From NCBI GenBank assembly GCA_903854335.1, contig CAINVY010000011.1, positions 3,007 through 67,006 on the forward strand: a DNA stretch of 64,000 nucleotides, in the 5' to 3' direction. The number at the start of each line of letters is the position of its first letter. Position 1 is the first letter of the stretch. The translations under genes and the position numbers were made by a program. The stretch comes from an uncultured Candidatus Peregrinibacteria bacterium (GTDB lineage: Bacteria > Patescibacteriota > Gracilibacteria > Peribacterales > Peribacteraceae). Under the pieces are notes generated by a model. It was given only the letters and a program-made list of their open reading frames with translations. It was not told where the DNA came from and searched no databases. This document shows, in pieces, positions 8,921 to 53,068 of the stretch.

Positions 8921-10180
8921 TTACGGGAACCTCATGCTTGTTTTTATGCGAAGGAACATCACGTCGATTGTTTTCAGCGGCGTGATGTCTTTGAAGTCGG
9001 CGAAGGCGACGGAGGAGTCGACATAGTCTTCCTTCATCATGAGCGTCGATGAGGAGGTCATTGCAATGAGGCAGGTGCGCGTGTATTCGCCCTCGAGCCC
9101 CATCACTTCACACGTGCCCTTTCTGCCGTCGATCGTCACGTTCTCGACCGGATCGGCCGTGGGATGTTCGAAGAAGGACATCGGCTTTTGCGCTGTGTAG
9201 AAGGAAAATATCCAGTCTGCGAAGAGCGGCGTGCAGTGCTCGAAGAGCCCCGATTCTCCGCAGCGTTCATAGGGAAGGACATGGGAGAAGGCGAAGCCAG
9301 AGAGCATGAATGTGCCCCCCGACGTCTGCACCGTCGTCTGGCTTGGCGCGAAAACGTACGGCGGATCGGGCGGGGTGACAGTGATGCCGAGCGTCGTCTC
9401 GAGCGAAAACGGATGCGTGTATCCCATCCCGAGCGGTTCGCCATCCGTCTGTGCCGTCGGCATCACGAAGGATGGTTTGCCGTTTCGAAGTCTATAGATC
9501 ATCTCGGCCATTTCGTTTCGGTGGAGCATCTGTGCGAAGCTGCCTATCGTCGGAGCGGTGATGTTCTTCTTCCTGAGCGCTTCGGTATAGACGCGGTACC
9601 AGATCTGTTCGTTGCCGTAATTGGCATCCTTCAGATTGAGAGGAAGCGAGAAGGTCTTCGCGAGGATCTTACTGGCGTTGGCGAAGTTGATGGAGAGGCC
9701 GGGCTGAAATGTGCCGTCGGGGAAACCGCTGATGATTCCCTTCGCCTTCGCCGCGCAAACATACGGTGCGAACCATGCCGATGCGGGAACATCGGGGAAG
9801 GGGGAAAGGGCACAGGGCGGGGGTTCTTTTTCGCCGCTCCCGAGCCACGCCATCTTGGTGAATTCCGCGCGGTTCACTTCGTTCTTCGGCAGGAAGTTTC
9901 TTGTCGAGGGGTCAGCGGGATTTTGGACGCCCTGCACGATTCCTCTGTCGTACAACCACTGGATTGCGGGATAGTAGAGATCGCAACCGTGCACGTCCTG
10001 ATGCTGCGTGCTCCACCCGATACCGTTGCATCCCGCTGTTGCGTGCGCGACGCCGATGCCGCAGAAAATGATGCCGAGGGAAAGGGTGAGGGAGAGGAGG
10101 GGGCGGGGCATGCTTTGCAGTCTACTCCGGAAAGCAGCAATGTCGTCGTTATCAGCGTCATATCTTCTTTTCTCTTGCAT
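8921..10180 (-). CDS. Secreted SLH-domain protein
   Basis: Signal/anchor segment followed by two SLH-like repeats (YYPAIQWLYDRGIVQG...; FPDVPASAWFAPYVCAAKAKGIISGFPDGTFQP). Divergent from the giant gene with only a 56-nt spacer. Confidence 0.7.
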   Translation of the reverse strand: MQEKRRYDADNDDIAAFRSRLQSMPRPLLSLTLSLGIIFCGIGVAHATAGCNGIGWSTQHQDVHGCDLYYPAIQWLYDRGIVQGVQNPADPSTRNFLPKNEVNRAEFTKMAWLGSGEKEPPPCALSPFPDVPASAWFAPYVCAAKAKGIISGFPDGTFQPGLSINFANASKILAKTFSLPLNLKDANYGNEQIWYRVYTEALRKKNITAPTIGSFAQMLHRNEMAEMIYRLRNGKPSFVMPTAQTDGEPLGMGYTHPFSLETTLGITVTPPDPPYVFAPSQTTVQTSGGTFMLSGFAFSHVLPYERCGESGLFEHCTPLFADWIFSFYTAQKPMSFFEHPTADPVENVTIDGRKGTCEVMGLEGEYTRTCLIAMTSSSTLMMKEDYVDSSVAFADFKDITPLKTIDVMFLRIKTSMRFP

Positions 10181-10236: not shown

Positions 10237-13200
10237 ATGTTCCAACCAGTCGATATGTCGCTCCTCCTCTCTCGGCGCAAGCGCATCGCGCTTGGGCTCG
10301 GTCTGATCGTGGTGCCTTCGCTCGTGGCATTCATGATCTTCAACGCCGGACAACACGGCGCTCTCCATAGTGCAGCGCCACTCGGTGCGTCCCTTACTGG
10401 TGACTCCACATGTGACGGAGACGGCAACTGTGAAGTGACAGGCACCGCAAGTCTCGATGGCGATACGACGGTGGCGGGGACACTGTATATCGACAATGGC
10501 GCTTCTCTCAATCTGAATGGACATTCCATCACGGTCAGTGGCAATACCACGAATGAAGGATACATTATGGACATGGTCGGAGGTGGAGTCTTTGGTGGAT
10601 CTATTACGAACAACGCGACAGGAGTGATTAATGAAGGAATATTCACCAGCTCCGTGGACAACTACGGCGGCACCATTGGGGCGTTTCCCGTTACCGATAA
10701 TTCAACCATGACATTCTATGGTTCGGTGACAAATGAAAATTATGCGGACCTCAATCACGGAACCTTCTATAACGGTGTAACAAATACCTCCAATTCCTAC
10801 ATCTCCGGCGGTTCCTTTTCGGACAGTCTTACTGTCACGAACAGCAACGGCGCGCTCATCCAGGGCGGGACATTCGAATCTTCAACTACCATCTATAACT
10901 ATGCCACTATCAATGGTTCCTTCGAGATCGACGGAACCGTGTACAACTATGGCAACATCTCCGGCGGCAGCACGCACTTCACGGGCAGGGTACAAAACAG
11001 CTACATCATTGCCGGTGGCTGGTTCAGCGGCGGCGGGTCGGTGGAGAACGAAACACTCGGAAGCATCACCGGCGGAGCATTCGATACCCCTGTAAGCAAT
11101 TATGGAACCGTGTACTTCGGATATTTCTCGTATCCGGTGCAAAACGGGAATTCCTTTGATTCTTCGGCGTATATCTATGGTGGAACATTCTCAAGCACGG
11201 TCGATAACTATGGGACGATTGATATGACGAGATCGAACGGCCCCACTCCGGATTTCAGCTCCGCCATGGTCACGCGAGAATCCGGCGACACGGTTCTCTG
11301 TCCTTCGGACAATGATCAATGCTTCGCAGAGTATTCCGCATCCACCTCTTCGTCTGATTCCACTTCTACATCATCCTCAGACTCCACTTCTACATCTTCT
11401 TCTGATTCTACTTCTTCGAATTCCTCCGGTTCCATGTATCACTGGATTGGCGGAGATCCGAACACACCGCATGGGTGGAATGATCCCGCAAACTGGTTGG
11501 AAGGCGAAGTGCCCGGGGAATTTGCCGGTGCGGACATCCCCGTTACCGATGGGTATAACCCCTTTATTTGGCAGCAGGATTCTAATGATGGATCGAACGG
11601 TATTACTCTCGGCACCGTGACGATCGAGGACGGGGCGATGATCAAAAGTAACGGTACGATCCATGGGGGAACATTTCATGGAAGAATATTTAATGATATT
11701 TATGGTGTTATTCTTGGAGGGACATATACCGATGTGGATAACTACGGCGAAATCGATATGACGGGAAGCAGTTTCGGTCCCCCGGATTTCAGCGCCGCCA
11801 CCCTGACGCGAGAGAATGGCGATTCGCTTCTCTGCCCCGAAGGAAAAAATTGGGATGTGAATTCCAATCGGTGTGCCGCCCCAACGTTTCACTGGATCGG
11901 AGGCGATACGAGCAACGGATTCAATGCAAACTCTTGGGATAATCCGGCAAACTGGGCGGAAGTTATCAACGCGCCACCTCCAAGCGGAGCAAACATTGTC
12001 ATTGATGGTAATTCGAGCAATTCCCCACTTATTCCTTACGGTTATGCCAATGATAACGTCGGCGGCGTGACGCTCGGCGACGTGACGATTCGAGATACAA
12101 GTTGGGGCATACAAAACATCGGTACCATCACAGACATCACCGGAACATTCACAGATAATTTTACCGGTGATGGCATCGAAAACTTCGGTGTCATCATGGA
12201 TATCAGCGGTACATTTACGTATAGCGGTACTGGTCGCGGTATTTACAATGATGCAGGCACGATCAACCACTTCACCGGATCCTTCGAAAACAGTGGCAAT
12301 GGTATCGGAATCCAGCAGTACGAGGGTGGTTCCATCTACGATATCAGCGGAACGTTTACCAACGATGGTGTATACAATCCTAATACCGATACCACCGGTA
12401 TGGGTATCGATAATATCGATGGCACCATCACGAATATCAGTGGAACGTTCGTTAGTAGGGGTGCTGGCATCGGTATCAACAATGAAGCTGCTGGCACCAT
12501 TGCCAATATCAGCGGGACTTTTAATAATAGCGGGAATGGTATTGGCATTCACAACCACGGCTCTATTGTCGATCTCAGCGGTGGCGGAGTGGCGCATCCA
12601 TCAGGTGGCTTCACGAATAATGGTAATAGCTACATTGTCGAAAACGAAGGCTCCATAGCCGCTATCAGTGGAGCTGTTTGGAATAATAGTTACGGTGTCG
12701 GAATTTACAATATGAATATCATTACCGATATCAGCGGAAGTGAGACAAACTATGGGAATAATGAAGTCGTCGACAACGAAGGCACAATTGTCGACATTAG
12801 CGGAACCATTACAAACATTGGAGGTGGTGCCGGCATCGCCAACAATGGAGGAATTATCGTTAACATCAGCGGATCCCTTGCCAATAATGGTCTTGGTCTT
12901 GGTCATGGTATCGACAATGAATATGGCGTCATCAATAACATCACCGGGACGTTATCCAATACTAGCGGTGGGTATGGCGTATACAATGATGGTGCCGTTA
13001 ACGGCGGAAATTATCCGGTGCTGGTATATAACGCAACTGGGGGATTCATTTATGGTGGAACATTCTTAAGCACTGTCGATAACTTTGGTACGATTGATAT
13101 GACTGGCTCAAGCTACGGTCCTCCGAATTTCGATGTTGCTACAGTTGTACGAGAATTCGGTGATAGGATCATCTGCCCTCTTAGCAATGATCAGTGTGCC

Positions 13201-16200
13201 AGCGCATTTGGCTCTGCTTCCTCCTCTTCCGATTCCACCTCTTCTTCCTCCTCCCCAGTTATTTCTACGTACCATTGGGTCGGTGGAAATACGGATAATG
13301 GCTACAGCGCAGACTCTTGGGATAACCCGGCAAACTGGCTGGAAGCCTCTATCCCCCCAAGCGGAGCGAACGTAGAAATTGGAGCGGATGCAACGAACAG
13401 CCCGGTGATTCCGATTGGTTATTCGAATAGCGAGGATGGAGTGACGCTCGGTGATGTCACTATTATGAATACGAATGGATTTGGTATTATTAACCACGCC
13501 GTCATCAACGACATCAATGGTACTATCACCGTATATACCAACGTTGCTGGTATCGATAACTACGGAACGATTACCGATATCACCGGAACACTCAATAATA
13601 ATATAAACGGCATTGGTATTCTTAATGAAATTGGTGCCACCATTACCAATATCAGCGGATACGTTTTCAATAACGGTAACGATCCCTACAATCAAGGCGC
13701 TGGCATCCTAAACTTGGGAACGATTACCGATATCAAAGGTACGCTTACGAACGTTTACGTCGGGTCAGGCATCGAAAACGATTATGGGGGCACGATTACT
13801 GACATTAGTGGAAGTATTATGAACATTAATAGTGGTATTGGAATTTATAATGATGGCGGAATGATCACGGACATCAGCGGAACTATCACGAATAGCGACA
13901 ACGCCGTTGGTATCGAAAACATCGGCACCATTAGCGATATGAGTGGAACCTTCACCACTACGAGTAATGCGGATGGTATCGATAACTACAATACCATTGA
14001 CGACATCAGCGGTACGCTCAACTTAGACGTGGGCTATCACGAGTCTATGGGAATCTATAACGACAGTTCCGGCATCATCTACGATATCGGCGGCAACGTT
14101 ACCACGAGCGGAGCAGGCATCGGTATTAAAAATCTCGGGACAATGGTCGATATGCGTGGATCGTTTGCCAATGGTTCCCATGTTGGAATCGAAAATGATG
14201 GAATAGTCGTCGATATCAGCGGAATCTTTGAGAATACGGGGGGCGTCACCGGTATCGATAATGAAGGGTCAATGATCGACGTCAGCGGAATTGTGGGGGA
14301 CGGCGGTAATGGATTGGGAGTTTTCAATAACGGCACCATCTACGGAGGTCATTACGCGGGGAGTGTGAACAACGAGAACGGCACTATCGATGTGACAGCC
14401 AACCAAGGAGGAACGGGTCTCCTCGCGGGTACGGCAACGATCAGCGGCGGTAACGTTGCCGTTGAAACGGATGGAACGATTGATATGCGCAATGGGCTTA
14501 TGTTCAGCAGTTTGTCTTCCTTCGTCAATCATCATACGGGTAATGCAAACATCACGTGTACTGCAGGGCTGGTCTGGAATGCGACGTCTCATGTTTGCGC
14601 GGCACAGACTTGCTTGGTCGACACCGATTGTTCGATTGGTTCGCAGTACTGCGCATTCGGCACGTGCAGCAATGGTTGTCGTGGCGGCACCTCCAGCGGT
14701 GCATATCTCTGTAATGTCACCGCCACGCCGCACGCCTACTACACGTCCTGTTCCGGCAATTCCGCCTGTGTGAACGGCGGTTGGTGCGGGCAGGACAGTC
14801 TGTGCCATACAAGCAATACGACCTGTTCTTCCAGTGCCGTCTGCCCCACGGGTGCGATGTGCGGCCAAGACAGCGCTTGCCACAATTCCTGCACTGCCGA
14901 TAGCCAGTGCCCTGCGGGTGGTGCAGCGCCGACGCTGATCAACGTTGGTTCGTACCCCAGAAAAATCGTTCTCTCTCCTGACGGGTTGAAAGCGTATGTC
15001 TTGAACAGCGCAAGCAATACCGTTTCCGTCATCTCGACGCAAAGTAATGCGGTTACGGATACGGTGAGCGTGGGAGCCGGCCCTGCCGCCATAGCGTTTT
15101 CTCCTGACGGAACAAAAGCGTATGTGCTGAATGCAACCGATAAGAGTGTGACGATCTTCAATACGGGCGACACGTCACAGAAGACACTCGTGAGCAACAT
15201 CGGTTCGAGTCCCCAAAGCATTGCTATTTCTCCGGATGGGTTGAAAGGGTATGTCGCAGATGAGGGAGGGGGCTTGAAGATATTTGATACGAGCAATACC
15301 GCAAATAGGTCGTCCGTGAGCGTCACCTATCCCATCAACGTTGCTGTCTCTCCGGATGGATCGAAAATCTTTGTGACGAGTGCGTTTTACGGCTCAATTA
15401 CGATCATTGATGCCAACAATACCGCGAACAGAACCAGCGTGAACATGGGGAGTTATATGGATGCCATCGCTGTAACTCCGGATGGATCGAAAGTGTTCGC
15501 GCTGGATTATGGCGGCAATAGCGTGAAGATATTCGATCCGAGTTACCCCGCTGGCAAGACATCCGTTCCTGTCGGCCAGAGTCCTTCCGGCATTGTCTTC
15601 TCTTCAGATGGGTTGCAGGCGTATGTGTTGAATGGCAACAGCGGCAACATTTCCGTCATCTCGACGCAAAGCAATACCGTTACGAAAACCATTACGGTTG
15701 GCAGTAACTTCGTTGGTATTGCCGTCACGTCGGATAATGCGAAGGCTTATCTGACAAACAATCTGTCCACCGGCCGGGTTTCCGTCATCGATCTTCTTGG
15801 CTACGCCTGTGCCACGGACAACCAGTGTCATCTGCAGAGTTCCTGCACGTCGGATAGCGACTGCTCCGCGAGCAAGTACTGCAGTGCGGGCATATGCGTC
15901 ACGGGTTCCCGTTCAAGCTCCAGCTCCAGCTCTCAATCGAGTCTTGAGTCGCATGACATACAGAGTTCTCCATCGAGCTCAAGTTCCAGCACCAGCTCCA
16001 GTAGTTCTTCCTGCAGTGCGGATGATGAGTGTGCTGCAAATACGTACTGCAGCGCATCGAGCTGCATCGCGGGTTGTCGCACAGGCACATTCCAGGGTGG
16101 CTACGTTTGTGTGAATCACAGCTTCGCGGCTTCCTGTGCGGACAATACGTCCTGTGATGTGAGCGGCGGATACCGCTGCGCCACGGACGGCGCATGCCAC

Positions 16201-17184
16201 GCACTTGCGAGCTGCGGGAGTTCCGACAGCAATTGTCCCGTGAACTATTACTGCGATACCGGGACGCACGCCTGTAGCTCGGGTTGCCGTGCCTCGAGCG
16301 AATGTTCGGCTGGTTCCGTGTGTACGAATCATGTTTGCACCGTCTCGTCTTCCAGCTCCACATCGACTTCAAGTTCTAGTTCCACTTCGACGAGCTCTAG
16401 TTCGAGTTCTGTTACCGTTGCGGAATCTTCTGCCAGTTCTGCTGCGATTGTGAGCGGAGGCGGAGGAGGAGGTGGTGGAAACCGCGGGACGACGGGCGGA
16501 TCGAATGTCACGACGATCGGGGCTTCGGGAGTGAAGGGAGTGAAGGGTGCGAATCAGGATCTCGAGAGTAGCTCCACTTCCTCCTTAAGTGCCTCGGAAC
16601 GTATGGAAGAAAGACGCGAAGCAAGACTCCAGGCGCGTTCTGCGTCTGCTTCTTCCGCTTCGAGCTCCGTTCATGCTGTCGCGACCGCGCAGCCATCGGA
16701 ATCTTCCGCATCTGCCTCCTCGGCAGAGTCAGCTCTGCGCGATGTATCGCAGAGTGCATGGTATGCGCAGGCAGTAACCGAAGCCGTTGCGAAGGGATGG
16801 ATGACGGCTCCAAATGGTATCTTCTCTCCCGCGGGATTCGTGACGGTCAACGATATGGTCAAGGCGCTCAATGCACTTCACGTGCAGAGTCCCTTCCTTG
16901 ATCGTCTGTCGGACACGCGCACCCTCGCGCTCACGAAGGGTGGGTTTCTCCAGATTATCACCGATGCGTTCTCATCCGAGCTTCAAGCTCTCCTGAAGAC
17001 AAAGACGCCGGCGGATACTGCGAGAGTCTGGCATGCCATTCCGGTTTCAGTTTCTCACTACGCTGCCGTGCGCATGAGCATCCTCGCAGGATGGATCTCG
17101 ATGCCGCAGGGAAGCTTCCATGGTCTCGATCCCATCACCCGAGCGGAAATGGCGAAGATCCTCCTGAACGTGGTGGGGCTGTGA
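10237..17184 (+). CDS. Giant (2315 aa) multidomain cell-surface protein
   Basis: N-terminal TM anchor. Three HW(I/V)GG..W(D/N)(D/N)PANW modules of the PATR (autotransporter-associated beta-strand) type at about 11439, 11888 and 13270. Dozens of ISGT(F/I)xN..GxGIxN beta-helix-like repeats. YVTN-type beta-propeller repeats (SPDG.KAYV.N..sntVSVI) at about 14930-15790. Cys-rich modules, Ser/Thr linkers and a Gly8 run. Two C-terminal SLH-like repeats. Confidence 0.85.
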   Translation: MFQPVDMSLLLSRRKRIALGLGLIVVPSLVAFMIFNAGQHGALHSAAPLGASLTGDSTCDGDGNCEVTGTASLDGDTTVAGTLYIDNGASLNLNGHSITVSGNTTNEGYIMDMVGGGVFGGSITNNATGVINEGIFTSSVDNYGGTIGAFPVTDNSTMTFYGSVTNENYADLNHGTFYNGVTNTSNSYISGGSFSDSLTVTNSNGALIQGGTFESSTTIYNYATINGSFEIDGTVYNYGNISGGSTHFTGRVQNSYIIAGGWFSGGGSVENETLGSITGGAFDTPVSNYGTVYFGYFSYPVQNGNSFDSSAYIYGGTFSSTVDNYGTIDMTRSNGPTPDFSSAMVTRESGDTVLCPSDNDQCFAEYSASTSSSDSTSTSSSDSTSTSSSDSTSSNSSGSMYHWIGGDPNTPHGWNDPANWLEGEVPGEFAGADIPVTDGYNPFIWQQDSNDGSNGITLGTVTIEDGAMIKSNGTIHGGTFHGRIFNDIYGVILGGTYTDVDNYGEIDMTGSSFGPPDFSAATLTRENGDSLLCPEGKNWDVNSNRCAAPTFHWIGGDTSNGFNANSWDNPANWAEVINAPPPSGANIVIDGNSSNSPLIPYGYANDNVGGVTLGDVTIRDTSWGIQNIGTITDITGTFTDNFTGDGIENFGVIMDISGTFTYSGTGRGIYNDAGTINHFTGSFENSGNGIGIQQYEGGSIYDISGTFTNDGVYNPNTDTTGMGIDNIDGTITNISGTFVSRGAGIGINNEAAGTIANISGTFNNSGNGIGIHNHGSIVDLSGGGVAHPSGGFTNNGNSYIVENEGSIAAISGAVWNNSYGVGIYNMNIITDISGSETNYGNNEVVDNEGTIVDISGTITNIGGGAGIANNGGIIVNISGSLANNGLGLGHGIDNEYGVINNITGTLSNTSGGYGVYNDGAVNGGNYPVLVYNATGGFIYGGTFLSTVDNFGTIDMTGSSYGPPNFDVATVVREFGDRIICPLSNDQCASAFGSASSSSDSTSSSSSPVISTYHWVGGNTDNGYSADSWDNPANWLEASIPPSGANVEIGADATNSPVIPIGYSNSEDGVTLGDVTIMNTNGFGIINHAVINDINGTITVYTNVAGIDNYGTITDITGTLNNNINGIGILNEIGATITNISGYVFNNGNDPYNQGAGILNLGTITDIKGTLTNVYVGSGIENDYGGTITDISGSIMNINSGIGIYNDGGMITDISGTITNSDNAVGIENIGTISDMSGTFTTTSNADGIDNYNTIDDISGTLNLDVGYHESMGIYNDSSGIIYDIGGNVTTSGAGIGIKNLGTMVDMRGSFANGSHVGIENDGIVVDISGIFENTGGVTGIDNEGSMIDVSGIVGDGGNGLGVFNNGTIYGGHYAGSVNNENGTIDVTANQGGTGLLAGTATISGGNVAVETDGTIDMRNGLMFSSLSSFVNHHTGNANITCTAGLVWNATSHVCAAQTCLVDTDCSIGSQYCAFGTCSNGCRGGTSSGAYLCNVTATPHAYYTSCSGNSACVNGGWCGQDSLCHTSNTTCSSSAVCPTGAMCGQDSACHNSCTADSQCPAGGAAPTLINVGSYPRKIVLSPDGLKAYVLNSASNTVSVISTQSNAVTDTVSVGAGPAAIAFSPDGTKAYVLNATDKSVTIFNTGDTSQKTLVSNIGSSPQSIAISPDGLKGYVADEGGGLKIFDTSNTANRSSVSVTYPINVAVSPDGSKIFVTSAFYGSITIIDANNTANRTSVNMGSYMDAIAVTPDGSKVFALDYGGNSVKIFDPSYPAGKTSVPVGQSPSGIVFSSDGLQAYVLNGNSGNISVISTQSNTVTKTITVGSNFVGIAVTSDNAKAYLTNNLSTGRVSVIDLLGYACATDNQCHLQSSCTSDSDCSASKYCSAGICVTGSRSSSSSSSQSSLESHDIQSSPSSSSSSTSSSSSSCSADDECAANTYCSASSCIAGCRTGTFQGGYVCVNHSFAASCADNTSCDVSGGYRCATDGACHALASCGSSDSNCPVNYYCDTGTHACSSGCRASSECSAGSVCTNHVCTVSSSSSTSTSSSSSTSTSSSSSSVTVAESSASSAAIVSGGGGGGGGNRGTTGGSNVTTIGASGVKGVKGANQDLESSSTSSLSASERMEERREARLQARSASASSASSSVHAVATAQPSESSASASSAESALRDVSQSAWYAQAVTEAVAKGWMTAPNGIFSPAGFVTVNDMVKALNALHVQSPFLDRLSDTRTLALTKGGFLQIITDAFSSELQALLKTKTPADTARVWHAIPVSVSHYAAVRMSILAGWISMPQGSFHGLDPITRAEMAKILLNVVGL

Positions 17185-17220
17185 GATGGGAAGACGAAGT
17201 ATACAAAAAGGACATTGGAA

Positions 17221-17778
17221 TCAGGGACTACGAAAGCGGGGTCCCTGATTTTGAAAGTTTGTAAGTGAAGATCGTTCTTCTTTCTCAAGACGAGAGTTTC
17301 GCCTTTCTTTCTCAGGGCAAGAACGCGTATCGCTTCTCGATACGTTCCCGCGTGTCATGGTGAGGTGCTCGCGCTTTCGCCTTCGTGGCTTTTTGCTCAG
17401 CAAAAAGCACCTCAGGCTGACACGGGAAGAAACTGAAGGGAGAAGCGAGCCACGAACCATCACGCGGGAACAATGGTATTTCCTCGGTTTTCCTCCTCGT
17501 CTCCGAGAAAAATGTTCCAGTGCTTTCTGATCCCTTTTGATCAAGGCTTCCTTTTTCTTTCGAGCCCATCCCTTCACCTGCTTCTCAAAATCAATCGCAT
17601 CCGTGATCTCCGGGAACTCCGCGGCGTACACGAGTTCAACCGGACGGCGGCGATGCGTGTACGCCTTCGGGTCCCATCCTGTCTGGTGCTCCCCGATACG
17701 CTTCTCCAGGTCATTCGTCACGCCGACGTAGCATGAACCGTCGGCGCAGCGGAGCATGTAGACGAAATAAGAATTCAC
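17221..17778 (-). CDS. GIY-YIG nuclease superfamily protein with a repeat-derived C-terminal extension
   Basis: YFVYMLRCADGSCYVGVTNDLEKRIGEHQTG...PVELVYAAEF is a UPF0213-type GIY-YIG core. A GTG at 17778 sits just before the first beta strand. The frame then reads about 90 codons through repeat 17352-17423 before stopping. Confidence 0.55.
   Translation of the reverse strand: MNSYFVYMLRCADGSCYVGVTNDLEKRIGEHQTGWDPKAYTHRRRPVELVYAAEFPEITDAIDFEKQVKGWARKKKEALIKRDQKALEHFSRRRGGKPRKYHCSRVMVRGSLLPSVSSRVSLRCFLLSKKPRRRKREHLTMTRGNVSRSDTRSCPEKERRNSRLEKEERSSLTNFQNQGPRFRSP
17352..17423. repeat. GTGTCA..TGAGGTGCT / AGCACCTCA..TGACAC palindromic element, copy a (inverted relative to copies b and c)
   Basis: Its reverse complement aligns with 22093-22163 and 52794-52866. 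The outer arms are conserved. The inner hairpin is GCTTTTTGC..GCAAAAAGC. Confidence 0.85.
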
Positions 17779-17851
17779 GACGACAGAATACCCTCCCTCA
17801 AAAAAATCCCCCGCACTGCGGGGGATTTTCAAAAGCGAGGTTAGAAATCCA

Positions 17852-18142
17852 TCACTTTCCCTCTGCAGATCGCTGTGCCATGAAGCAATCCTTGCAGAGA
17901 ACGGGCTTGCCGCCCTCCTCGACTGGTCGAGGCTGGAAGGGGACCTCACATTGCGCACCGCACTTCGCGCACACTGCCGGATACATCTGGCGTGTGGTGA
18001 GGCGCTGCGACTTGCGTGCCGTGCGACAGTCCTTGCATCGCTGCGGGGCAGAGAGGTTCCGGGACGCGTAGAACTCCTGTTCGCCCTCCGTGAAGGCAAA
18101 CGTGTTCCCGCAATCGCGGCAGGTGAGCTGCTGATCAGCCAT
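17852..18142 (-). CDS. Zinc-ribbon protein (duplicated CxxC...CxxC)
   Basis: 96 aa. LTCRDCGNTFAFTEGEQEFYASRNLSAPQRCKDCR plus a second half, CAKCGAQCEVPF...CKDCF. ATG start. Confidence 0.7.
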   Translation of the reverse strand: MADQQLTCRDCGNTFAFTEGEQEFYASRNLSAPQRCKDCRTARKSQRLTTRQMYPAVCAKCGAQCEVPFQPRPVEEGGKPVLCKDCFMAQRSAEGK

Positions 18143-18232
18143 AAAAAAGAAAGAAGGAAGTAAAAGCGCAATGTTCCTTCCTCCATGTTTCTCGGGGACC
18201 GATAGGACTGGTTTGAAGGAAATGCCAAGGAC

Positions 18233-18321
18233 ACTGTAGGGATAAAGCCTTGTATTGTCAAATTTCTCTCATACTGGACGAGGAAGTGAGAAATTGACAA
18301 AGAAACATATATTGCTATGGT
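18233..18321. promoter_or_regulatory. Mirror-image divergent promoter pair
   Basis: TTGTCAAATTTCTC (18255-18268) and GAGAAATTGACAA (18288-18300) form an inverted repeat that carries two opposed TTGACA -35 boxes. Plus strand: TTGACA (18294-18299), 16 nt, TGcTATGGT (18313-18321). Minus strand: TTGACA (18262-18257), 18 nt, TACAGT (18238-18233). Confidence 0.5.
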
Positions 18322-18347
18322 GATCTCTGCCTTTCCCATCTTTATTT

Positions 18348-18584
18348 ATGACGCTACCAAGAGATCACGGGAATTTTCCCTTTCCTACATTCAGTCAGGA
18401 ATACGGTAAAGTGGTACGAAGGGAGCCATTATCAATAACTCCGGCTTTGGCAAAAGCCGTTGCGGTTGGTGCTCGGGTTACGGGTGAAGCGGTGAGAAAT
18501 ACCTTGGTACTCGATGAACGTGAAGAGCATCTTCGAAATCTGCAACAAAAGAGGGATGCTAAAACTGCCTCGGATGCTCATTAA
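18348..18584 (+). CDS. Small protein A (78 aa), a short paralogue of the N-terminus of protein D
   Basis: Monocistronic unit with its own promoter and terminator. It shares AVGARVTG and VL.E..(E/D)H.R with protein D. Confidence 0.55.
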   Translation: MTLPRDHGNFPFPTFSQEYGKVVRREPLSITPALAKAVAVGARVTGEAVRNTLVLDEREEHLRNLQQKRDAKTASDAH

Positions 18585-18599
18585 TTTGGAAGATAGAGG

Positions 18600-18625
18600 C
18601 CCCGCCAAGAGGCGGGGTTATTTTT
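18600..18625 (+). terminator. Intrinsic terminator after gene A
   Basis: CCCCGCC-AAGA-GGCGGGG followed by TTATTTTT. Confidence 0.65.
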
Positions 18626-18678
18626 CTATTCTGATTTCGCTCATCAATTCAGTGGATTATATGATCCGCATTCAATAT

Positions 18679-18706
18679 TTGACAAAAATAAATATATTGC
18701 TATGGT
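18679..18706 (+). promoter_or_regulatory. Promoter of gene B (near-copy of the gene A promoter)
   Basis: TTGACA (18679-18684), 16 nt, TGcTATGGT (18698-18706). The stretch atatattgctatggtg is shared with the gene A promoter. Confidence 0.55.
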
Positions 18707-18734
18707 GTGATAAATCTATTCCAATTCTCTCTTT

Positions 18735-19322
18735 ATGAAGCCCGCCCCCACTCTACGAAAAGGAGATTGTCCTGCATCTCTCAGTCAGGGGATGCCTGCT
18801 CTTCCGACTTCGGGAAGCGTTGTACCGACTCAAGCACAGGAAACCGGCACGGGGGTGAGAAAAGTTCTCAGCAAGATACCACTCAAATCTGTAGGCGTAC
18901 AGACGTTGCACGAGGGAGATGATATGCAAGCTTTGCTACAGAGAGAGTTTCGTAAGCAGTTGCAGATCTTTATCAATCAGATTGCACGTACAATTCTTCT
19001 CTGCACAGGGAACGAACCGGGGAAACAGAGGACTGTTACTAACAATGCGAGACAGATCGCAACGAGCGCAGTCACGATAGACGATTTCTGGCGCAGGTGT
19101 CCCGGATCGATTAAGCACGCTTTTCAGGCACTGCTACAGGCGAATGATTTAGTGGCTGAAAGGCTTGGACGGCCCAAAGAGACAGGTGACATTTTCCAGC
19201 CGATGGAATGCCTCAGGCCCGCATTGCAGACATGCAACGATGCGATCGTTTCGTATTTGGGGGGAATCACTGTTGTTACTGTCCCTTGCGAGCCGATAGC
19301 TGAGCCGACGGCACAAGCGTGA
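18735..19322 (+). CDS. Hypothetical protein B (195 aa), cassette family member
   Basis: ATG start in a lower-G+C region. Sequence pattern suggests helices. The C-terminal pattern (..ALLQ..., ..AIVSYLGG) resembles proteins C and D. Confidence 0.55.
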   Translation: MKPAPTLRKGDCPASLSQGMPALPTSGSVVPTQAQETGTGVRKVLSKIPLKSVGVQTLHEGDDMQALLQREFRKQLQIFINQIARTILLCTGNEPGKQRTVTNNARQIATSAVTIDDFWRRCPGSIKHAFQALLQANDLVAERLGRPKETGDIFQPMECLRPALQTCNDAIVSYLGGITVVTVPCEPIAEPTAQA

Positions 19323-19326
19323 ATAT

Positions 19327-19354
19327 TTGACAGGCCGCATGGGGCTGATAGCTT
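19327..19354 (+). promoter_or_regulatory. Possible promoter of gene C
   Basis: aatatTTGACA (as at the gene B promoter), 16 nt, then TAGCTT. The -10 is weak. Confidence 0.4.
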
Positions 19355-19381
19355 TGGGAGCAACCTCCCCGGCTCGCGATC

Positions 19382-19885
19382 ATGCATTATATTCATGACG
19401 GTCCCCTTGGTGAAGTTGTCAGTCGATCTACTGAGTCAAAGTCCTTGCCGGGTTTGGATGCTTTTCGATTCACCTATCAGAATCTCGTAATGGATCGGGT
19501 CTCTCAAACGAGTGAGGATGTGAGAGATCTGTTTGAGTTTGATACGCAAACTTGTCTTGGTCCGAAGCTCAATCAACTCAAAACTGTCCTTGATGATCTT
19601 CTTCACAAATGCGGTTTGTCTTCGGAATTTCCTTTGAAGGATGTCCTCGGTGATGCGACATCAATGTTGCATTCTGAGCAGACGGGCATTCCATTCTGGG
19701 AGCAAACTCGTCCGCTTGTGATCTCCAGTACGCTTCAAGTGTTACAGCGCACCGTTGCGCATCTTCAAGATCTTTTTTCGGACGGCAATGCTCCTCAGGC
19801 GCATGCAGAGAAGGGTTTCCTGATAGAAGGTATTGTTGCGGCAAGGCAGATCATCCGTCCCTTATTGGCATATGGTGCGTACTGA
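19382..19885 (+). CDS. Hypothetical protein C (167 aa), cassette family member
   Basis: ATG start. Sequence pattern suggests helices. The C-terminal ARQIIRPLLAYGAY resembles the C-termini of proteins B and D. Confidence 0.55.
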   Translation: MHYIHDGPLGEVVSRSTESKSLPGLDAFRFTYQNLVMDRVSQTSEDVRDLFEFDTQTCLGPKLNQLKTVLDDLLHKCGLSSEFPLKDVLGDATSMLHSEQTGIPFWEQTRPLVISSTLQVLQRTVAHLQDLFSDGNAPQAHAEKGFLIEGIVAARQIIRPLLAYGAY

Positions 19886-19932
19886 GGGGAGGGGGTACGA
19901 TTGATTCCTTTTGTATTCTTTCCCATATTACT

Positions 19933-20424
19933 ATGTCTCATGCACCTCTCAGCGCTGGCGAATCACTGACCTTAGAACGACCTGCCGCCAAGCCTGCGAG
20001 AGAAGCTGCTGTAGGAGCAAGAGTCACTGGTTGTTCAGAGGCATCTTGGGCGGCAACGCATAGAGTGCTTACTGAAGACAATGACCATGTTCGTGGAAGG
20101 CAGAGTCTCATTGATTTCGAAAACTCGCTTACTCGGGTGCGAGCGGAAGTGGTGGAAAATACCGATGTCGAAGCGACTCTTGAGAAGATATTGGCATTGA
20201 TGGGGCCTGCAATTAACGATCCATTTATTCGACAGCACTTTCCGACGAGGGTCCTCAATCCCATGAAAATGACGCATTATCTTGCTGTTGCGCTTCAAAA
20301 TCACTTAAGGGAGGGAGTTTCGGAGAGCAAGATTTTGCCCAGCATGCCTCATCTCCAAGAAGGAATGGAAATGTGTGCGCTATCGATTTTGGCGTACTGG
20401 GAACATGTGGCCGATCAGCCTTAA
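19933..20424 (+). CDS. Hypothetical protein D (163 aa), cassette family member
   Basis: The N-terminus carries AAVGARVTG and VLTEDNDHVR, both shared with protein A. The 5' motif ctttcccat is shared with genes A and E. Confidence 0.55.
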   Translation: MSHAPLSAGESLTLERPAAKPAREAAVGARVTGCSEASWAATHRVLTEDNDHVRGRQSLIDFENSLTRVRAEVVENTDVEATLEKILALMGPAINDPFIRQHFPTRVLNPMKMTHYLAVALQNHLREGVSESKILPSMPHLQEGMEMCALSILAYWEHVADQP

Positions 20425-20470
20425 GTTTTTTTCTTTCGCACGTCCAGACTCTTCTTTTCCCATCTTGGTT

Positions 20471-20695
20471 ATGGCCTACCCAGCCACTGAGTTACCTGAT
20501 TGGTTTGTAAGTCAGGCTCGTAAAGATCTTCAAGCTGCTCGTGAGACGACGGTGTCGACCGAAGCTGCACGTATGGATGATGGATTGCAACATAGGAGGG
20601 AGGAGAACGAGGCTATGGCACCCGTGGCGACTGGAAAAGATGAAACTGCTGAGGCAGCGAAAAAATTGCTTCGTTTCCTGTACACCGGACCTTAA
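20471..20695 (+). CDS. Small acidic protein E (74 aa)
   Basis: Internal ATG of ORF 20375-20695, chosen to avoid overlap with gene D. Preceded by ttttcccatcttggtt. Ends at the bidirectional terminator. Confidence 0.4.
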   Translation: MAYPATELPDWFVSQARKDLQAARETTVSTEAARMDDGLQHRREENEAMAPVATGKDETAEAAKKLLRFLYTGP

Positions 20696-20697
20696 GT

Positions 20698-20724
20698 AAA
20701 AACCCCGCCTGAGCGGGGTTTTTT
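20698..20724. terminator. Bidirectional intrinsic terminator (cassette gene E and rplL)
   Basis: AAAAA-CCCCGC-CTGA-GCGGGG-TTTTTT, with A and T tracts on both sides. Confidence 0.75.
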
Positions 20725-20744
20725 GCATCTGTGGAACCAAACGT

Positions 20745-21137
20745 TTACTTGAGAGAAACTTTCGCGCCTGCGGCTTCGAGCTTCGTCTTCATTTCGTCGG
20801 CCTCCTTCTTGGCGACGCCTTCCTTGACCATCTTCGGAGCGCCGTCGACGAGAGCCTTGGCCTCGCCGAGAGGGAGACCCGTGATCTCGCGGACGACCTT
20901 GATCACGGCGATCTTCTGCGCGCCGGAATCGGTGAGCTCCACATTGAAGCTCGTTTTCTCTTCGCCGGCATCGGCTGCGCCAGCGGCGGGGGCTGCGGCG
21001 ACTGCGGCGGGGGCTGCGGCGGAGATGCCGTATGTCAGCTCCATGTACTTCACGACGTTATTCAGCTGAACGACATTCAGCTTCTCGAGCGCGTCGATGA
21101 CTGCTTGCTCTTCTTTCACGAGGGTGGCGTCGGCCAT
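20745..21137 (-). CDS. rplL: 50S ribosomal protein L7/L12
   Basis: 130 aa. Ala-rich hinge and the C-terminal [36 protein letters not shown]. Confidence 0.95.
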
Positions 21138-21737: not shown

Positions 21738-21959
21738 GGTGTAGGGATGAAAGGTGTGAGAAGAGGGGAGATCGGGCTTAAAAAAGGTCTCCCTAGCGTT
21801 GAAGCGTCCGGGAGACCAGCGAGGAACACGGCACGAAGCACCAAGCCGGGGCCGAGTGACCGATGCTGTATTCCTCGGAGGGGCTTATTTCGGCCTGCGG
21901 CCTTGTGCCCTCGGTCTTCGGACGTGAGGGGAGTCTACTCCCGCGGCTGATTATGTCAA
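21738..21959 (-). promoter_or_regulatory. rplJ promoter plus about 190-nt leader with an attenuator-like terminator (L10 leader candidate)
   Basis: Minus strand: TTGACA (21959-21954), 16 nt, TAGACT (21937-21932). The leader contains GGTCTCCC, a 16-nt loop, GGGAGACC and then TTTTTT (21817-21780), placed 42 nt before the ATG. Confidence 0.55.
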
Positions 21960-22092
21960 GAGCAGTTCTCATCCGTTGCTCTTTTTTAGTTCCAATGAAA
22001 ACCGCCTGCGTCAGCTGGTGGGTGAAGAGGTAGCGATACGCTATGGCAAGCGTGATGGTTCGTGGCTCGCATCCCTTTTCAGTTTGTTTCCA

Positions 22093-22163
22093 TGTCAGCC
22101 TGAGGTGCTTTTTGCAAAGTAAAAAGCCACGAAGGCTTAGGCGCGAGCACCTCACCATGACAC
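22093..22163. repeat. GTGTCA..TGAGGTGCT palindromic element, copy b
   Basis: tgtcagcctgaggtgctttttgcaaagtaaaaagccacgaaggcttaggcgcgagcacctcaccatgacac. Lies between tig and the rplJ promoter. Confidence 0.85.
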
Positions 22164-22262
22164 GCTTGCTGGATGCCGGACAAGTGAAGCTTGCTTTGTA
22201 AGAACTCCGCCAGAGCACACTGGCAGTAGTTCATTTTTTGACGTTCCGTCGAGAAACGCCTT

Positions 22263-52212: not shown

Positions 52213-52793
52213 TTTCCAAAAAATGGTTCAGGTTTCCCATCGGCTGTTAGCTGATTTGAATCAATGGCAGAGAGAGGAGTAGCCACGCAGGCTTCCAAGA
52301 CGGTCGCTATACCCAGGTGATGCAGTAGGTGTGCAGGAGTTGGCCGGGAGGAACGTTTGTTGGTCACGTGGCCATTCCTATCTCTGCGAACGATGGTGGA
52401 GAAAGAACAGGAATTGTTTGTATGGATTCTTTATGTCTTGATCTCCTATTGGGTGGGGGATCGTGTAATCCTATCTTCGAATTCCGATTACTCAAGGAGT
52501 CTGGGTAGAGGGAACTGCCAGAGAGGATACGAATACAAAATGTGCACATAAATAAACAAATAAAATATGGCTTTTGTAAGCCATAAAAGTCATGAATGAA
52601 TAAATAAATTGACCATTTGGATTATGCTCCTTGCATTCGCATTTATGAACAGTTTTGAACTATTCATCTGTGAAGATTTATTTACTATTCTCTTTCTTTG
52701 TCTGGGCGACAGGAATCGCCTTTCTTTCTCCGGTCTAGAACAACGAAGCGTGTCTACGGTTCGTGGCTCGCTTCCTTTTTATGGAAAAAACCT

Positions 52794-52866
52794 GTGTCAG
52801 CCTGAGGTGCTCCAAGCGAAGCGAGGAGCCACGAAGGCTTGGGCCGCTCGCACCTCACCATGACAC
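52794..52866. repeat. GTGTCA..TGAGGTGCT palindromic element, copy c
   Basis: Same outer arms as copies a and b. The inner hairpin is replaced by GCTCC..GGAGC, so pairing is kept with a different sequence. It abuts the 200-nt element. Confidence 0.85.
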
Positions 52867-52867
52867 G

Positions 52868-53068
52868 CCACCTCCTGGAGCACGGCTCCAACCGATGTGT
52901 GTTTGTTTTTGTGTGCGCCGCAGCGCAATAAAAAAGAAAAATTCCATGGTTCCCACTGGAAATCCCACCATTAACTCCGAAAATTCCACAAATTGTTACC
53001 GTTAGGAGGGTAACGGGGGTGTGGGTGTGTAGGGAACCGAACAAGGTTCCCTCACCCCCCACGAAAGA
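52868..53068. repeat. About 200-nt hairpin-rich element, copy B
   Basis: Collinear with 6126-6330. Ends 5 nt before the glyA stop codon (convergent side). Confidence 0.8.

What the first reader, a model, noticed from the sequence alone, without database searches (positions are those of the whole stretch)
18348..20695. Lower-G+C cassette of four tandem paralogous small proteins plus an acidic mini-protein, with an AVGARVTG motif kept through different codons
Five same-strand genes lie between the zinc-ribbon gene and rplL: A (78 aa), B (195 aa), C (167 aa), D (163 aa) and E (74 aa). I recognise no family for any of them.

- Proteins A and D share AVGARVTG, followed by VL(D/T)E..(E/D)H(L/V)R.
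- At the DNA level the motif is GCG GTT GGT GCT CGG GTT ACG GGT in A and GCT GTA GGA GCA AGA GTC ACT GGT in D. Seven of its eight codons differ (the final GGT is shared), yet the peptide is identical. That is direct evidence of purifying selection on the peptide.
- Proteins B, C and D end with similar motifs (..AIVSYLGG, ..IIRPLLAYGAY, ..LSILAYWEHV).
- Genes A and B have near-identical promoters (aTTGACA, 16 nt, TGcTATGGT). Gene C reuses aatatTTGACA.
- Genes A, D and E share a ctttcccat 5' motif.
- Gene A has its own terminator, and the cassette ends in a bidirectional terminator.

Taken together this looks like an independently regulated accessory module. A conserved N-terminal peptide on variable helical bodies is reminiscent of a targeting, processing or secretion tag on a family of effector-like or immunity-like proteins. 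That functional idea is speculation.
Basis: partly seen in the sequence, partly recalled or inferred. Interest (0 to 1): 0.7.

Follow-up and report, generated by a model that had tools for sequence, protein, structure and literature searches.

The report
Fast-turnover orphan gene array in Peribacteria
A 2.6-kb block of five small genes with no known relatives sits between two conserved housekeeping genes of an uncultured Peribacteria (CPR) bacterium; it is real, is shared only with the closest sequenced relative, and turns over far faster than its surroundings, but its function is unknown.

Summary
The observation largely holds. ORFs A-E, the G+C dip, two near-identical promoters, both terminators and the AVGARVTG peptide (7 of 8 codons different) are all present. 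The window is from a Candidatus Peribacteria genome.

In most Peribacteria the zinc-ribbon gene follows rplL by 200-300 bp. Here, and in the closest relative (L004), an opposite-strand gene array is inserted there.

"Four tandem paralogues" is only partly right:
- A matches only D's N-terminal tail.
- B and D are linked through L004 proteins.
- C is a weak candidate.
- E is a separate family.

B, C and D have a roughly 60-residue, probably disordered tail followed by a roughly 120-residue, probably four-helix domain.

No relative turned up in billions of proteins, nor in Pfam, NCBIfam, PHROGs, PADLOC, PDB or phage collections.

Flanking genes are 95-98% identical between the two genomes (dS 0.2-0.6). 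The array proteins are 21-39% identical, with dS saturated. Only the promoter-plus-leader "heads" still align (68-77%), and head-body pairings differ between the genomes.

Best reading: a lineage-restricted array of head-plus-ORF units under birth-and-death or recombinational turnover. It encodes soluble, fast-diverging proteins, plausibly conflict-related. That function is inference. The ctttcccat motif largely reflects this genome's usual leaders without a Shine-Dalgarno (SD) site.

The parts
18143..18347 (.). Divergent promoter region. It holds the zinc-ribbon gene's promoter and leader on the minus strand (TTGACA at 18261, TACAGT at 18233). On the plus strand it holds the first cassette 'head': -35 TTGACA at 18294, TG-extended -10 TATGGT ending at 18321, and the C/U-rich leader with TTTCCCAT at 18332-18339.
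   Evidence: Promoter scan. 77% DNA identity to L004 4187-3979 over 211 nt (alignment).
18348..18584 (+). Gene A (78 aa, basic). It is a stand-alone copy of the family's N-terminal tail module and contains AVGARVTG. It has no helical-bundle domain.
   Evidence: ORF. Similar to the D tail (p 3e-4) and to the N-terminus of L004 protein L4_1 (p 6e-3; BLASTP E 0.005). No match to the domain HMM.
18598..18625 (+). Intrinsic terminator after A: GGCCCCGCC-AAGA-GGCGGGGTT followed by a T-run.
18614..18734 (+). Second 'head': ATATTTGACA (18675-18684), TG-extended TATGGT (ending at 18706) and a C/U-rich leader. It is a near-copy of A's promoter and matches the head in front of L4_185 in L004.
   Evidence: 68% identity over 121 nt to L004 2239-2121. 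Head-to-head z-score about 16-17.
18735..19322 (+). Gene B (195 aa): a tail of about 60 aa, probably disordered, then a helical domain of about 120 aa. The domain carries three family-conserved Cys (LLC, FW..CP, L..AL..C..AI).
   Evidence: ORF. Homology to L004 L4_1 and L4_171. Family alignment A1. AF2 models with pLDDT 42 (full length) and 57 (domain), all-helical.
19323..19381 (+). Partial head in front of C: ATATTTGACA at 19323-19332 with a weak -10 (TAGCTT). It lacks the TTTCCCAT-type leader.
19382..19885 (+). Gene C (167 aa, acidic). A weakly supported, divergent member of the helical-domain family. It keeps IPFWEQ..P and a C-terminal ..IIRPLLAY.
   Evidence: ORF. Its domain-HMM score is reached by 3 of 500 shuffles, and it aligns in a co-linear register. 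Pairwise tests are not significant.
19933..20424 (+). Gene D (163 aa, acidic): an N-terminal tail with AVGARVTG plus the helical domain. Its closest relative is L4_185 of L004. It is preceded by a TTTCCCAT leader (19919-19926) with no clear promoter of its own.
   Evidence: D vs L4_185: 21% identity over 104 aa, E 5e-5, p 5e-5. The HMM score is reached by 0 of 500 shuffles.
20446..20695 (+). The E leader (TTTCCCAT at 20456-20463) and gene E (20471-20695, 74 aa, acidic). E is not related to B, C or D. Only its leader and first 25 or so codons are conserved with L004's last gene (MA[YH]P.T.LPDWF.S).
   Evidence: 56% identity over 25 aa, E 2e-8; 71% DNA identity over 110 nt.
20697..20728 (.). Shared bidirectional terminator between E and the convergent rplL: AAAAACCCCGC-CTGA-GCGGGGTTTTTT.
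   Evidence: Read directly from the sequence. Conserved in L004. Weak terminator-type Rfam partial matches only.

Best explanation
This is a real, lineage-restricted accessory gene array in a Candidatus Peribacteria (CPR) genome. It lies on the opposite strand, in the normally short spacer between rplL and a treble-clef zinc-ribbon gene.

The array is built from repeated units. Each unit has a roughly 70-120-nt 'head' (an AT-rich stretch, a TTGACA -35, a TG-extended -10, and an SD-less leader of the TTTCC[C/A]AT type). The head is followed by an ORF.

B, D and probably C belong to one previously undescribed protein family. Its members have a loosely conserved tail of about 60 aa, probably disordered, and a soluble domain of about 120 aa, probably a four-helix bundle, with up to three conserved cysteines. 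A is a detached copy of the tail module. E is a separate small acidic protein.

The array evolves by birth-and-death and recombination among units. Heads drift at about the neutral rate, while the ORF bodies in the two known genomes are non-orthologous or have been exchanged. The result is 21-39% protein identity next to flanking proteins that are 95-98% identical.

What is shown: the genes, the family, the insertion site, the modular heads and the excess divergence.

What is inferred: the proteins are expressed from their own promoters and act as diversifying binding proteins in a biological conflict, for example as immunity- or antitoxin-like neutralisers or as host- or phage-interaction factors. 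The confidence given is for the structural and evolutionary description. The conflict function alone I put at about 0.25.
For: GENES AND FAMILY
- The ORFs and their coding-like GC1>GC2 pattern.
- Protein-level homologues at the same site and in the same orientation in L004.
- Shuffle-tested similarities: B-L4_1 and B-L4_171 p 4e-8, D-L4_185 p 5e-5, E-L4_E p 3.5e-7, A-D p 3e-4.
- A co-linear seven-sequence domain alignment.

INSERTION SITE
- In most Peribacteria loci that carry both genes, the zinc-ribbon gene follows rplL by about 200-300 bp. Other lineages carry unrelated inserts at the same spot.

HEADS
- Nine upstream regions from the two genomes align. Six have TTGACA at the same distance from the ATG and eight have a TTTCC[C/A]AT-like leader.
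- ATATTTGACA is found only in the cassette within the 64-kb window.

TURNOVER
- Flank dS is 0.20-0.60 with dN about 0.02-0.03. Cassette dS is 1.1-3.9 (saturated for B and D) and dN is 0.65-0.86.
- The only alignable DNA is the three head regions, at 68-77%.
- B's head matches the L4_185 head (z about 16-17), but B's body matches L4_1 and L4_171, while D's body matches L4_185.
- A strain variant contig (L165) is identical over about 1.2 kb, then has 12 SNPs within 65 nt inside B.

SOLUBLE AND HELICAL
- No hydrophobic segment.
- AF2 secondary structure is all helices.
Against: - Only two genomes carry the family, so every evolutionary inference rests on one comparison.
- C's membership is weak, and A's coding status by codon statistics is equivocal.
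- Structure models are low-confidence (pLDDT 42 and 57). The fold search gives only generic four-helix-bundle matches, none at E below 0.07.
- There is no expression data.
- Nothing links the proteins to a toxin, a secretion system, a phage or a defence system, so the conflict function is inference from the evolutionary pattern alone.
- Low GC3 equals the intergenic G+C of this clade. This also fits weakly constrained, dispensable genes.
- The L165 SNP cluster lies at a contig end and could be an assembly artefact.
Confidence: 0.6

Rival explanations
1. These are young or weakly constrained lineage-born genes with no important function. An expanded intergenic spacer duplicated its promoter-leader head several times. 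The ORFs behind the heads are proto-genes, or decaying genes, drifting close to neutrality.
For: - GC3 of 0.35-0.52 matches the 0.45-0.50 G+C of the short rplL-zf spacers in other Peribacteria rather than host coding GC3.
- No relatives anywhere.
- A looks like a gene fragment.
- E is conserved only over its first 25 codons.
- The host-codon-model log-odds are negative for all five ORFs.
Against: - Three ORFs of 163-195 aa lie on one strand with tight spacing.
- The domain alignment is co-linear, with conserved Cys, FW..CP and a C-terminal helix, despite saturated dS (pN about 0.5 against pS about 0.7-0.75).
- AVGARVTG is kept through 7 synonymous codon changes.
- Consensus-strength promoters are maintained in both genomes.
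- The genome is a reduced CPR genome, in which useless DNA is usually lost (general knowledge).
Confidence: 0.2
2. This is a horizontally acquired mobile or phage-derived block: moron-like promoter-gene-terminator units or a prophage remnant dropped into an insertion hot spot.
For: - Atypical G+C and codon usage.
- Gene A is a self-contained promoter-ORF-terminator unit.
- The rplL-zf spacer holds different inserts in other lineages.
- A GIY-YIG gene and a 116-nt dispersed repeat lie nearby.
Against: - No match in PHROGs, GenBank phages or IMG/VR.
- No integrase, transposase or flanking direct repeats at the cassette borders.
- Promoters and SD-less leaders are of the host's own type.
- The array was present in the common ancestor of the window genome and L004, at the same site.
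Confidence: 0.1
3. These are spurious ORFs in a non-coding or RNA-coding region.
For: - No database homologues.
- Low host-codon scores.
Against: - Protein-level but not DNA-level conservation with L004.
- Frame 0 is the best frame for B-E.
- No Rfam match except terminator-like fragments.
- No long ORFs conserved on the other strand.
Confidence: 0.03

Closest known systems
Replacement-type flexible genomic islands, i.e. hypervariable loci between conserved core genes (concept recalled from the prokaryotic pangenome literature; not tested against a database)
   Same: The chromosomal site is fixed between conserved core genes. Contents differ radically between close relatives whose flanks are about 90-94% identical at the DNA level. 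G+C is atypical. Different lineages carry different inserts at the same spot.
   Different: Classic examples encode surface glycans, receptors or defence systems and span tens of kilobases. This one is 2.6-3 kb of small soluble orphan proteins arranged as repeated promoter-plus-ORF units.
Tandem arrays of divergent immunity genes next to polymorphic toxins (CDI, Rhs, T6SS or T7SS 'orphan immunity' clusters; colicin Im proteins are small four-helix proteins). Recalled knowledge.
   Same: Small, soluble, probably helical proteins in same-strand tandem arrays, with extreme divergence among paralogues and between strains.
   Different: No toxin gene, toxin C-terminal fragment or secretion system lies nearby. 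There is no match to any Pfam immunity family, including Colicin_Pyocin, and no PADLOC match. Each unit has its own promoter rather than riding behind a toxin gene.
Phage 'morons' (autonomous promoter-ORF-terminator units). Recalled knowledge.
   Same: Gene A is exactly such a unit, and the other units carry their own promoters.
   Different: There is no phage context and no phage homologues. The location is chromosomal, and the array was inherited vertically at least since the split from L004.
Generic up-down four-helix bundles (cytochrome b562/BRIL, FAT domain, designed helical bundles)
   Same: The predicted secondary structure has four to five helices over about 120 aa. The best Foldseek and PDB-profile matches are of this type.
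   Different: The matches are non-significant (Foldseek E at least 0.07) or are to designed repeat proteins. There is no haem- or metal-ligand pattern, and the model confidence is low. This is a resemblance of fold class only, not membership.

Membership tests
Any curated protein family (Pfam-A, NCBIfam) | Score at or above the family's curated cut-off | tested here: not met
   A-E and the four L004 proteins give no match above cut-off. The best are DUF7276 at E 0.26, Peptidase_S31 at 0.07 and DUF6987 at 0.054, all far below gathering scores.
Anti-phage defence system components (PADLOC-DB) | HMM match to a known or candidate defence protein | tested here: not met
   0 families for all nine proteins at E up to 0.1.
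Phage protein families (PHROGs), phage genomes and IMG/VR | A homologue in a phage family or on a phage contig | tested here: not met
   Only two weak hits for A, of unknown function (E 0.016 and 0.032). tblastn of B against 50,697 phage records found no match. IMG/VR scans with B and D found no relative.
Polymorphic-toxin immunity array | Adjacent upstream toxin gene or toxin C-terminal domain on the same strand | tested here: not met
   The upstream plus-strand gene is a 2315-aa beta-propeller surface protein whose C-terminal sequence I judge, by eye, to look SLH-like (Pfam reported no SLH hit for it). A GIY-YIG gene and the zinc-ribbon gene lie between it and the array on the other strand. 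No toxin domain was detected.
Polymorphic-toxin immunity array | Physical binding to, and neutralisation of, a cognate toxin | not testable with these tools
   Requires experiment.
Secreted effector with an N-terminal signal | Sec or Tat signal peptide, or a transmembrane anchor | tested here: not met
   The maximum 19-residue Kyte-Doolittle hydropathy is 1.44 or lower for all nine proteins, and no N-terminal hydrophobic core is visible. A non-classical signal cannot be excluded.
WXG100 / T7SS substrates (considered because of the central FW.G motif) | A helix-turn-helix of about 100 aa with WXG in the turn, a Pfam WXG100 match, and an EssC/EccC ATPase nearby | tested here: not met
   No Pfam match. 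The domain is predicted to have 4-5 helices. W-x-G is present in only 2 of 7 domains. None of the window's larger ORFs that were scanned has an FtsK-type ATPase (only part of the window was scanned).
New B/C/D helical-domain family (defined here) | A co-linear domain of about 120 aa: L..RE.R helix, Cys at its end, FW..CP, and a C-terminal L..AL..C..AI..YL helix | tested here: met
   B, L4_1 (two copies), L4_171 and L4_185 are significant. D is significant via L4_185 and the HMM. C is inconclusive on its own (3 of 500 shuffles).
Known RNA families (Rfam 15) | Covariance-model match at or above the gathering score | tested here: not met
   Nothing in 17100-20800 except sub-threshold terminator-like fragments.

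The most novel reading that the evidence does not exclude
The array is a new kind of diversification cassette in an ultra-small CPR bacterium. Conserved promoter-leader 'heads' act as portable recombination anchors that shuffle and replace variable four-helix 'bodies'. This would generate a strain-specific repertoire of soluble proteins, with the loosely conserved N-terminal tail serving as a non-classical export or partner-recognition signal. Those proteins would mediate interaction with the host cell, with competitors or with phages.
Probability: 0.12. Interest if true: 0.7.

Novelty: new member of a known kind. Interest (0 to 1): 0.38.

Why it matters
CPR bacteria have tiny genomes and are thought to live attached to, or dependent on, other cells, yet the genes that mediate those interactions are mostly unknown.

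A strongly promoted gene array inserted in a conserved ribosomal-protein neighbourhood, with contents that outpace neutral divergence of the flanks, is the kind of locus where strain-specific interaction or conflict genes would be expected.

If these proteins prove to be expressed and to bind partners, they would be a handle on Peribacteria ecology. They would also define a new small-protein fold family.

If they are merely drifting orphan genes, the locus would still be a clean example of gene birth-and-death in a reduced genome.

At present this is a well-delimited orphan family with an interesting evolutionary pattern. It is not a demonstrated new mechanism.

Tried and rejected
HOMOLOGY SEARCHES
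1. Word-seeded HMMER searches of 5.8 billion clusters with D, with B and with the seven-sequence family profile returned only the window's own proteins.
2. A full HMMER profile search of 1.84 billion representatives gave two extra hits. P0006 is a TPR-repeat protein. P0007 is an internally repeated sequence matching only 'IPFWE..P'. I rejected both as spurious on inspection.
3. The family profile that included the L004 sequences could not be submitted to that search or to structure prediction, because the tool only accepts window sequences.

STRUCTURE
4. AF2 on full-length B gave pLDDT 42.
5. AF2 on the B domain gave pLDDT 57.
6. Foldseek against PDB then gave only BRIL/cytochrome b562-type generic bundles at E of 0.07 or higher. 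This is not interpretable as homology.
7. The PDB sequence-profile search hit only designed helical repeat proteins.

RELATED GENOMES
8. 80 genome loci and 79 metagenome loci anchored on rplJ contained no further family members. The JGI metagenome collection held no close relative; the best rplJ match was 74% identical.
9. The viral-contig scan with the family alignment failed because no stretch was conserved enough.

IDEAS CONSIDERED AND DROPPED
10. HEPN domain: no Rx4-6H motif.
11. Haem, ferritin or hemerythrin bundles: no ligand pattern.
12. ZAS anti-sigma factor: no HxxxCxxC.
13. Encapsulin or microcompartment cargo tag: the motif does not resemble known targeting peptides, and I did not look for a shell gene.
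14. WXG100: see the membership test.

OTHER
16. Population dN/dS was impossible. Seven of the eight metagenome contigs are identical or differ by one synonymous SNP; only L165 differs more (12 SNPs).
Full report
**What is there.** The five plus-strand ORFs exist exactly as described:

| Gene | Coordinates | Length |
|---|---|---|
| A | 18348-18584 | 78 aa |
| B | 18735-19322 | 195 aa |
| C | 19382-19885 | 167 aa |
| D | 19933-20424 | 163 aa |
| E | 20471-20695 | 74 aa |

They lie between a treble-clef zinc-ribbon gene (zf_Tbcl + zf_Tbcl_2, 17852-18142, minus strand) and the convergent rplL (20745-21137, minus strand). G+C falls to 44-50% against 55-60% on either side. The drop is concentrated at third codon positions: GC3 is 0.35-0.52 against 0.66-0.77 in twelve host genes. 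GC1>GC2 stays coding-like.

- Two TTGACA-16-TG-TATGGT promoters are 26/29 identical.
- ATATTTGACA occurs only twice in 64 kb, ahead of B and of C. Chance expectation is 0.06.
- TTTCCCAT lies 8-12 nt upstream of the A, D and E start codons.
- A strong terminator follows A.
- A bidirectional hairpin is shared with rplL.
- AVGARVTG is encoded by GCG GTT GGT GCT CGG GTT ACG GGT in A and by GCT GTA GGA GCA AGA GTC ACT GGT in D.

**Organism and site.** The rplJ protein retrieves only Candidatus Peribacteria/Peregrinibacteria genomes. The closest is CAIJNU010000026.1 (bin AlinenLipids_bin-9222, locus L004) at 95% identity, and the next is at 74%. In most of the Peribacteria loci that contain both genes, the zinc-ribbon gene follows rplL on the same strand after only about 200-300 bp. 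A minority carry unrelated inserts there, including beta-rich secreted proteins, membrane proteins and HTH regulators. The spacer is therefore a recurrent insertion spot. The window genome has 2.6 kb there and L004 has 3.06 kb. In both, the insert is on the strand opposite to rplL.

**Are A-E paralogues?** Within the window alone, only A and D show significant similarity. It is 45% over 40 aa; 0 of 1000 shuffles reach its score, p about 3e-4. B, C and D are not pairwise significant.

The picture changes with L004. Its insert encodes four proteins:
- L4_1 (369 aa from the ATG that follows the conserved leader) has an A-like N-terminus followed by two B-like domains.
- L4_171.
- L4_185.
- L4_E, an E-like last gene.

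Shuffle-calibrated Smith-Waterman tests give:

| Pair | p |
|---|---|
| B - L4_1 | 4e-8 |
| B - L4_171 | 4e-8 |
| L4_171 - L4_185 | 6e-5 |
| D - L4_185 | 5e-5 |
| A - L4_1 N-terminus | 6e-3 |
| E - L4_E | 3.5e-7 |

BLASTP for D against L4_185 gives E 5e-5 with 21% identity over 104 aa.

An HMM built without C and D places both in the correct C-terminal register. No shuffle of 500 reaches D's score, and 3 of 500 reach C's.

The seven-domain alignment (A1) is co-linear. It runs from an L..RE.R helix ending in Cys, through a second helix and an FW..CP.S motif, to a third helix, a loop and a C-terminal L..AL..C..AI..YL helix.

In summary, B and D are paralogues, C is a probable but weakly supported one, A is only the N-terminal tail module, and E is a different protein. 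The exact octapeptide is confined to A and D. Other tails show only a loose ...G....(R/H)(R/K)(V/I)L equivalent.

**No known relatives.**
- Pfam, NCBIfam, PHROGs and PADLOC gave nothing above threshold for the five window proteins or the four L004 proteins.
- Word-seeded HMMER over 5.8 billion clusters with D, B or the family profile returned only the queries.
- A full profile scan of 1.84 billion representatives added only two artefactual hits, a TPR protein and an internal-repeat sequence.
- The PDB sequence profile hit only designed helical repeats.
- GenBank phages and IMG/VR gave nothing.
- The family HMM found no member in about 160 Peribacteria loci or elsewhere in the window.
B has residues 1-60 unstructured and then helices at 61-90, 95-110, 112-121, 124-144 and 155-177 (pLDDT 42). 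The domain alone gave pLDDT 57 and pTM 0.44.
- Foldseek returned only generic up-down bundles such as BRIL/cytochrome b562 and FAT, none at E below 0.07.
- None of the proteins has a hydrophobic segment.

**Evolutionary pattern.** This is the most informative result.

| Comparison, window vs L004 | Protein identity | dS | dN |
|---|---|---|---|
| rplJ, rplL, zinc-ribbon (flanks) | 95-98% | 0.20-0.60 | about 0.02-0.03 |
| B, D, E vs nearest L004 counterpart | 25-39% (global alignment; 21% in D's BLASTP local alignment) | 1.1-3.9 (saturated for B and D) | 0.65-0.86 |

Sensitive blastn aligns only three stretches across the whole insert:
- the zf-promoter and first head (18143-18350, 77%);
- the head in front of B (18614-18731, 68%), which matches the head in front of L4_185;
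- the E leader plus about 27 codons (20446-20552, 71%).

These identities are what neutral divergence at the flanks' dS would give. The heads are therefore plausibly orthologous DNA. The ORF bodies are far beyond that level, so they are not simple orthologues.

Head and body affinities also disagree. B's head pairs with L4_185's head (z about 16-17). B's body is closest to L4_1 and L4_171, and it is D's body that is closest to L4_185.

Aligning the nine upstream regions shows a common module, GTGAG.ATTTGACAA...ATATTG.TAT..TG...TCTTTTCCCAT.TT..TTATG. Six of the nine keep TTGACA at about 53 nt from the start codon.

The simplest account is an array of duplicated head-plus-ORF units undergoing unequal or homologous recombination at the heads. 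It would also involve differential loss of old paralogues, and possibly allele exchange within the population.

One strain-variant contig (L165) is identical to the window over about 1.2 kb, then shows 12 SNPs within 65 nt inside B. This is compatible with a mosaic breakpoint, but it lies at a contig end and is weak evidence. The other seven metagenome contigs are identical or differ by one synonymous SNP, so no population dN/dS was possible.

**What is not special.** The 'ctttcccat' leader is a sharper version of this organism's normal translation-initiation context. rplL, rplJ, tig and the zinc-ribbon gene all lack a Shine-Dalgarno sequence and have C/U-rich leaders, for example ccttttccccctctacccATG. 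The low G+C equals that of the short rplL-zf spacers in other Peribacteria (0.45-0.50). It may therefore reflect weak codon-level constraint rather than foreign origin.

**Function.** Nothing in the neighbourhood suggests a partner system. The surrounding genes encode an ImpB-type polymerase, LytR-CpsA-Psr, RelA/SpoT, an SLH protein, a 2315-aa beta-propeller surface protein, GIY-YIG, SecDF, TPR, PfkB and a Big_1/fn3 surface protein.

I therefore commit only to the following, marked as inference. The proteins are soluble and cytoplasmic, or non-classically exported, with a conserved helical core and fast-changing surfaces. They are expressed from strong individual promoters. Their turnover pattern is the one usually seen for genes involved in conflict, such as immunity- or antitoxin-like binders or host- or phage-interaction factors. 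I give this function about 0.25.

The main rival is weakly constrained lineage-born genes, at about 0.2. A mobile or phage origin is about 0.1. Spurious ORFs are essentially excluded, because conservation with L004 is at the protein level but not the DNA level.

**Verdict.** The accessory-module interpretation is supported, and the targeting-tag and effector/immunity idea is untested. This is a new orphan protein family in a familiar kind of locus, a hypervariable island between core genes, made somewhat more interesting by its modular head-plus-body organisation and by occurring in a reduced CPR genome. Interest 0.38.

Noticed in passing
window 21806-21923 (minus strand), with a promoter at about 21930-21961 and a terminator hairpin at about 21775-21815, upstream of the rplJ start at 21737: A roughly 118-nt element (GTCCGAAGACCGAGGGCACAAGG...GGTCTCCCGGAC) is 89-99% identical at the DNA level (mostly above 93%) across about 30 Peribacteria whose rplJ proteins are only 55-74% identical. 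RNAalifold predicts a three-way junction of 41 pairs, 6 of them with compensatory changes. It has its own -35/-10 and is followed by a variable terminator. There is no Rfam match even at E of 1 or lower. It is a candidate divergent L10-leader-type attenuator or a novel structured small RNA.
   Followed up: partly
window 17350-17465 (+), 22050-22165 (inverted, 89%), 52758-52868 (73%): A dispersed 116-nt repeat with an internal palindrome (GCCTTCGTGGCTTTTTGCT / AGCAAAAAGCACCTCAGGC). Two copies form an inverted pair 4.6 kb apart, bracketing GIY-YIG, the zinc-ribbon gene, the cassette, rplL and rplJ. It could be a MITE-like element or a small RNA. No link to the cassette borders was seen.
   Followed up: partly
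window-wide; examples upstream of 21137 (rplL), 21737 (rplJ), 23543 (tig) and 18142 (zf): Conserved genes lack Shine-Dalgarno sequences and instead have pyrimidine-rich (C/U) leaders. Some genes (the giant protein at 10237; the ORF at 60723) have a TGGTATAAT -10 box only about 6-12 nt before the ATG, which suggests very short leaders or leaderless mRNAs.
   Followed up: partly
loci L005-L083, the spacer between rplL and the zf_Tbcl gene: Across Peribacteria the rplJ-rplL pair is followed by a conserved treble-clef zinc-ribbon gene instead of rpoB/rpoC. The rplL-zf spacer is a recurrent insertion site holding unrelated genes in different lineages, for example a DUF-like membrane protein in L063, L072 and L082, secreted beta-rich proteins in L018 and L027, and HTH proteins in L024 and L032.
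   Followed up: partly
window 17221-18339 (minus strand): A 372-codon ORF overlaps the zinc-ribbon gene in another frame. Only its central part (about residues 191-263) matches a GIY-YIG nuclease domain, so the true gene is probably much shorter (about 17.5-17.8 kb). It sits next to one copy of the 116-nt repeat.
   Followed up: no
L001 1789-1817 against window 20724 onward: One metagenome contig carrying an identical cassette diverges completely from the window 29 nt before its end, just past the shared terminator. This is either a strain with a different downstream context or an assembly-end artefact.
   Followed up: no
window 10237-17184 (+): A 2315-aa protein with Ser/Thr-rich linkers, repeated Cys-rich modules and a YVTN/lactonase-type beta-propeller. 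Its C-terminal sequence looks SLH-like to me by eye, but Pfam reported no SLH hit for this protein; the adjacent ORF at 8921-10180 does carry an SLH domain. It is probably a giant S-layer-anchored surface protein, on the same strand as the cassette but separated from it by two minus-strand genes.
   Followed up: partly
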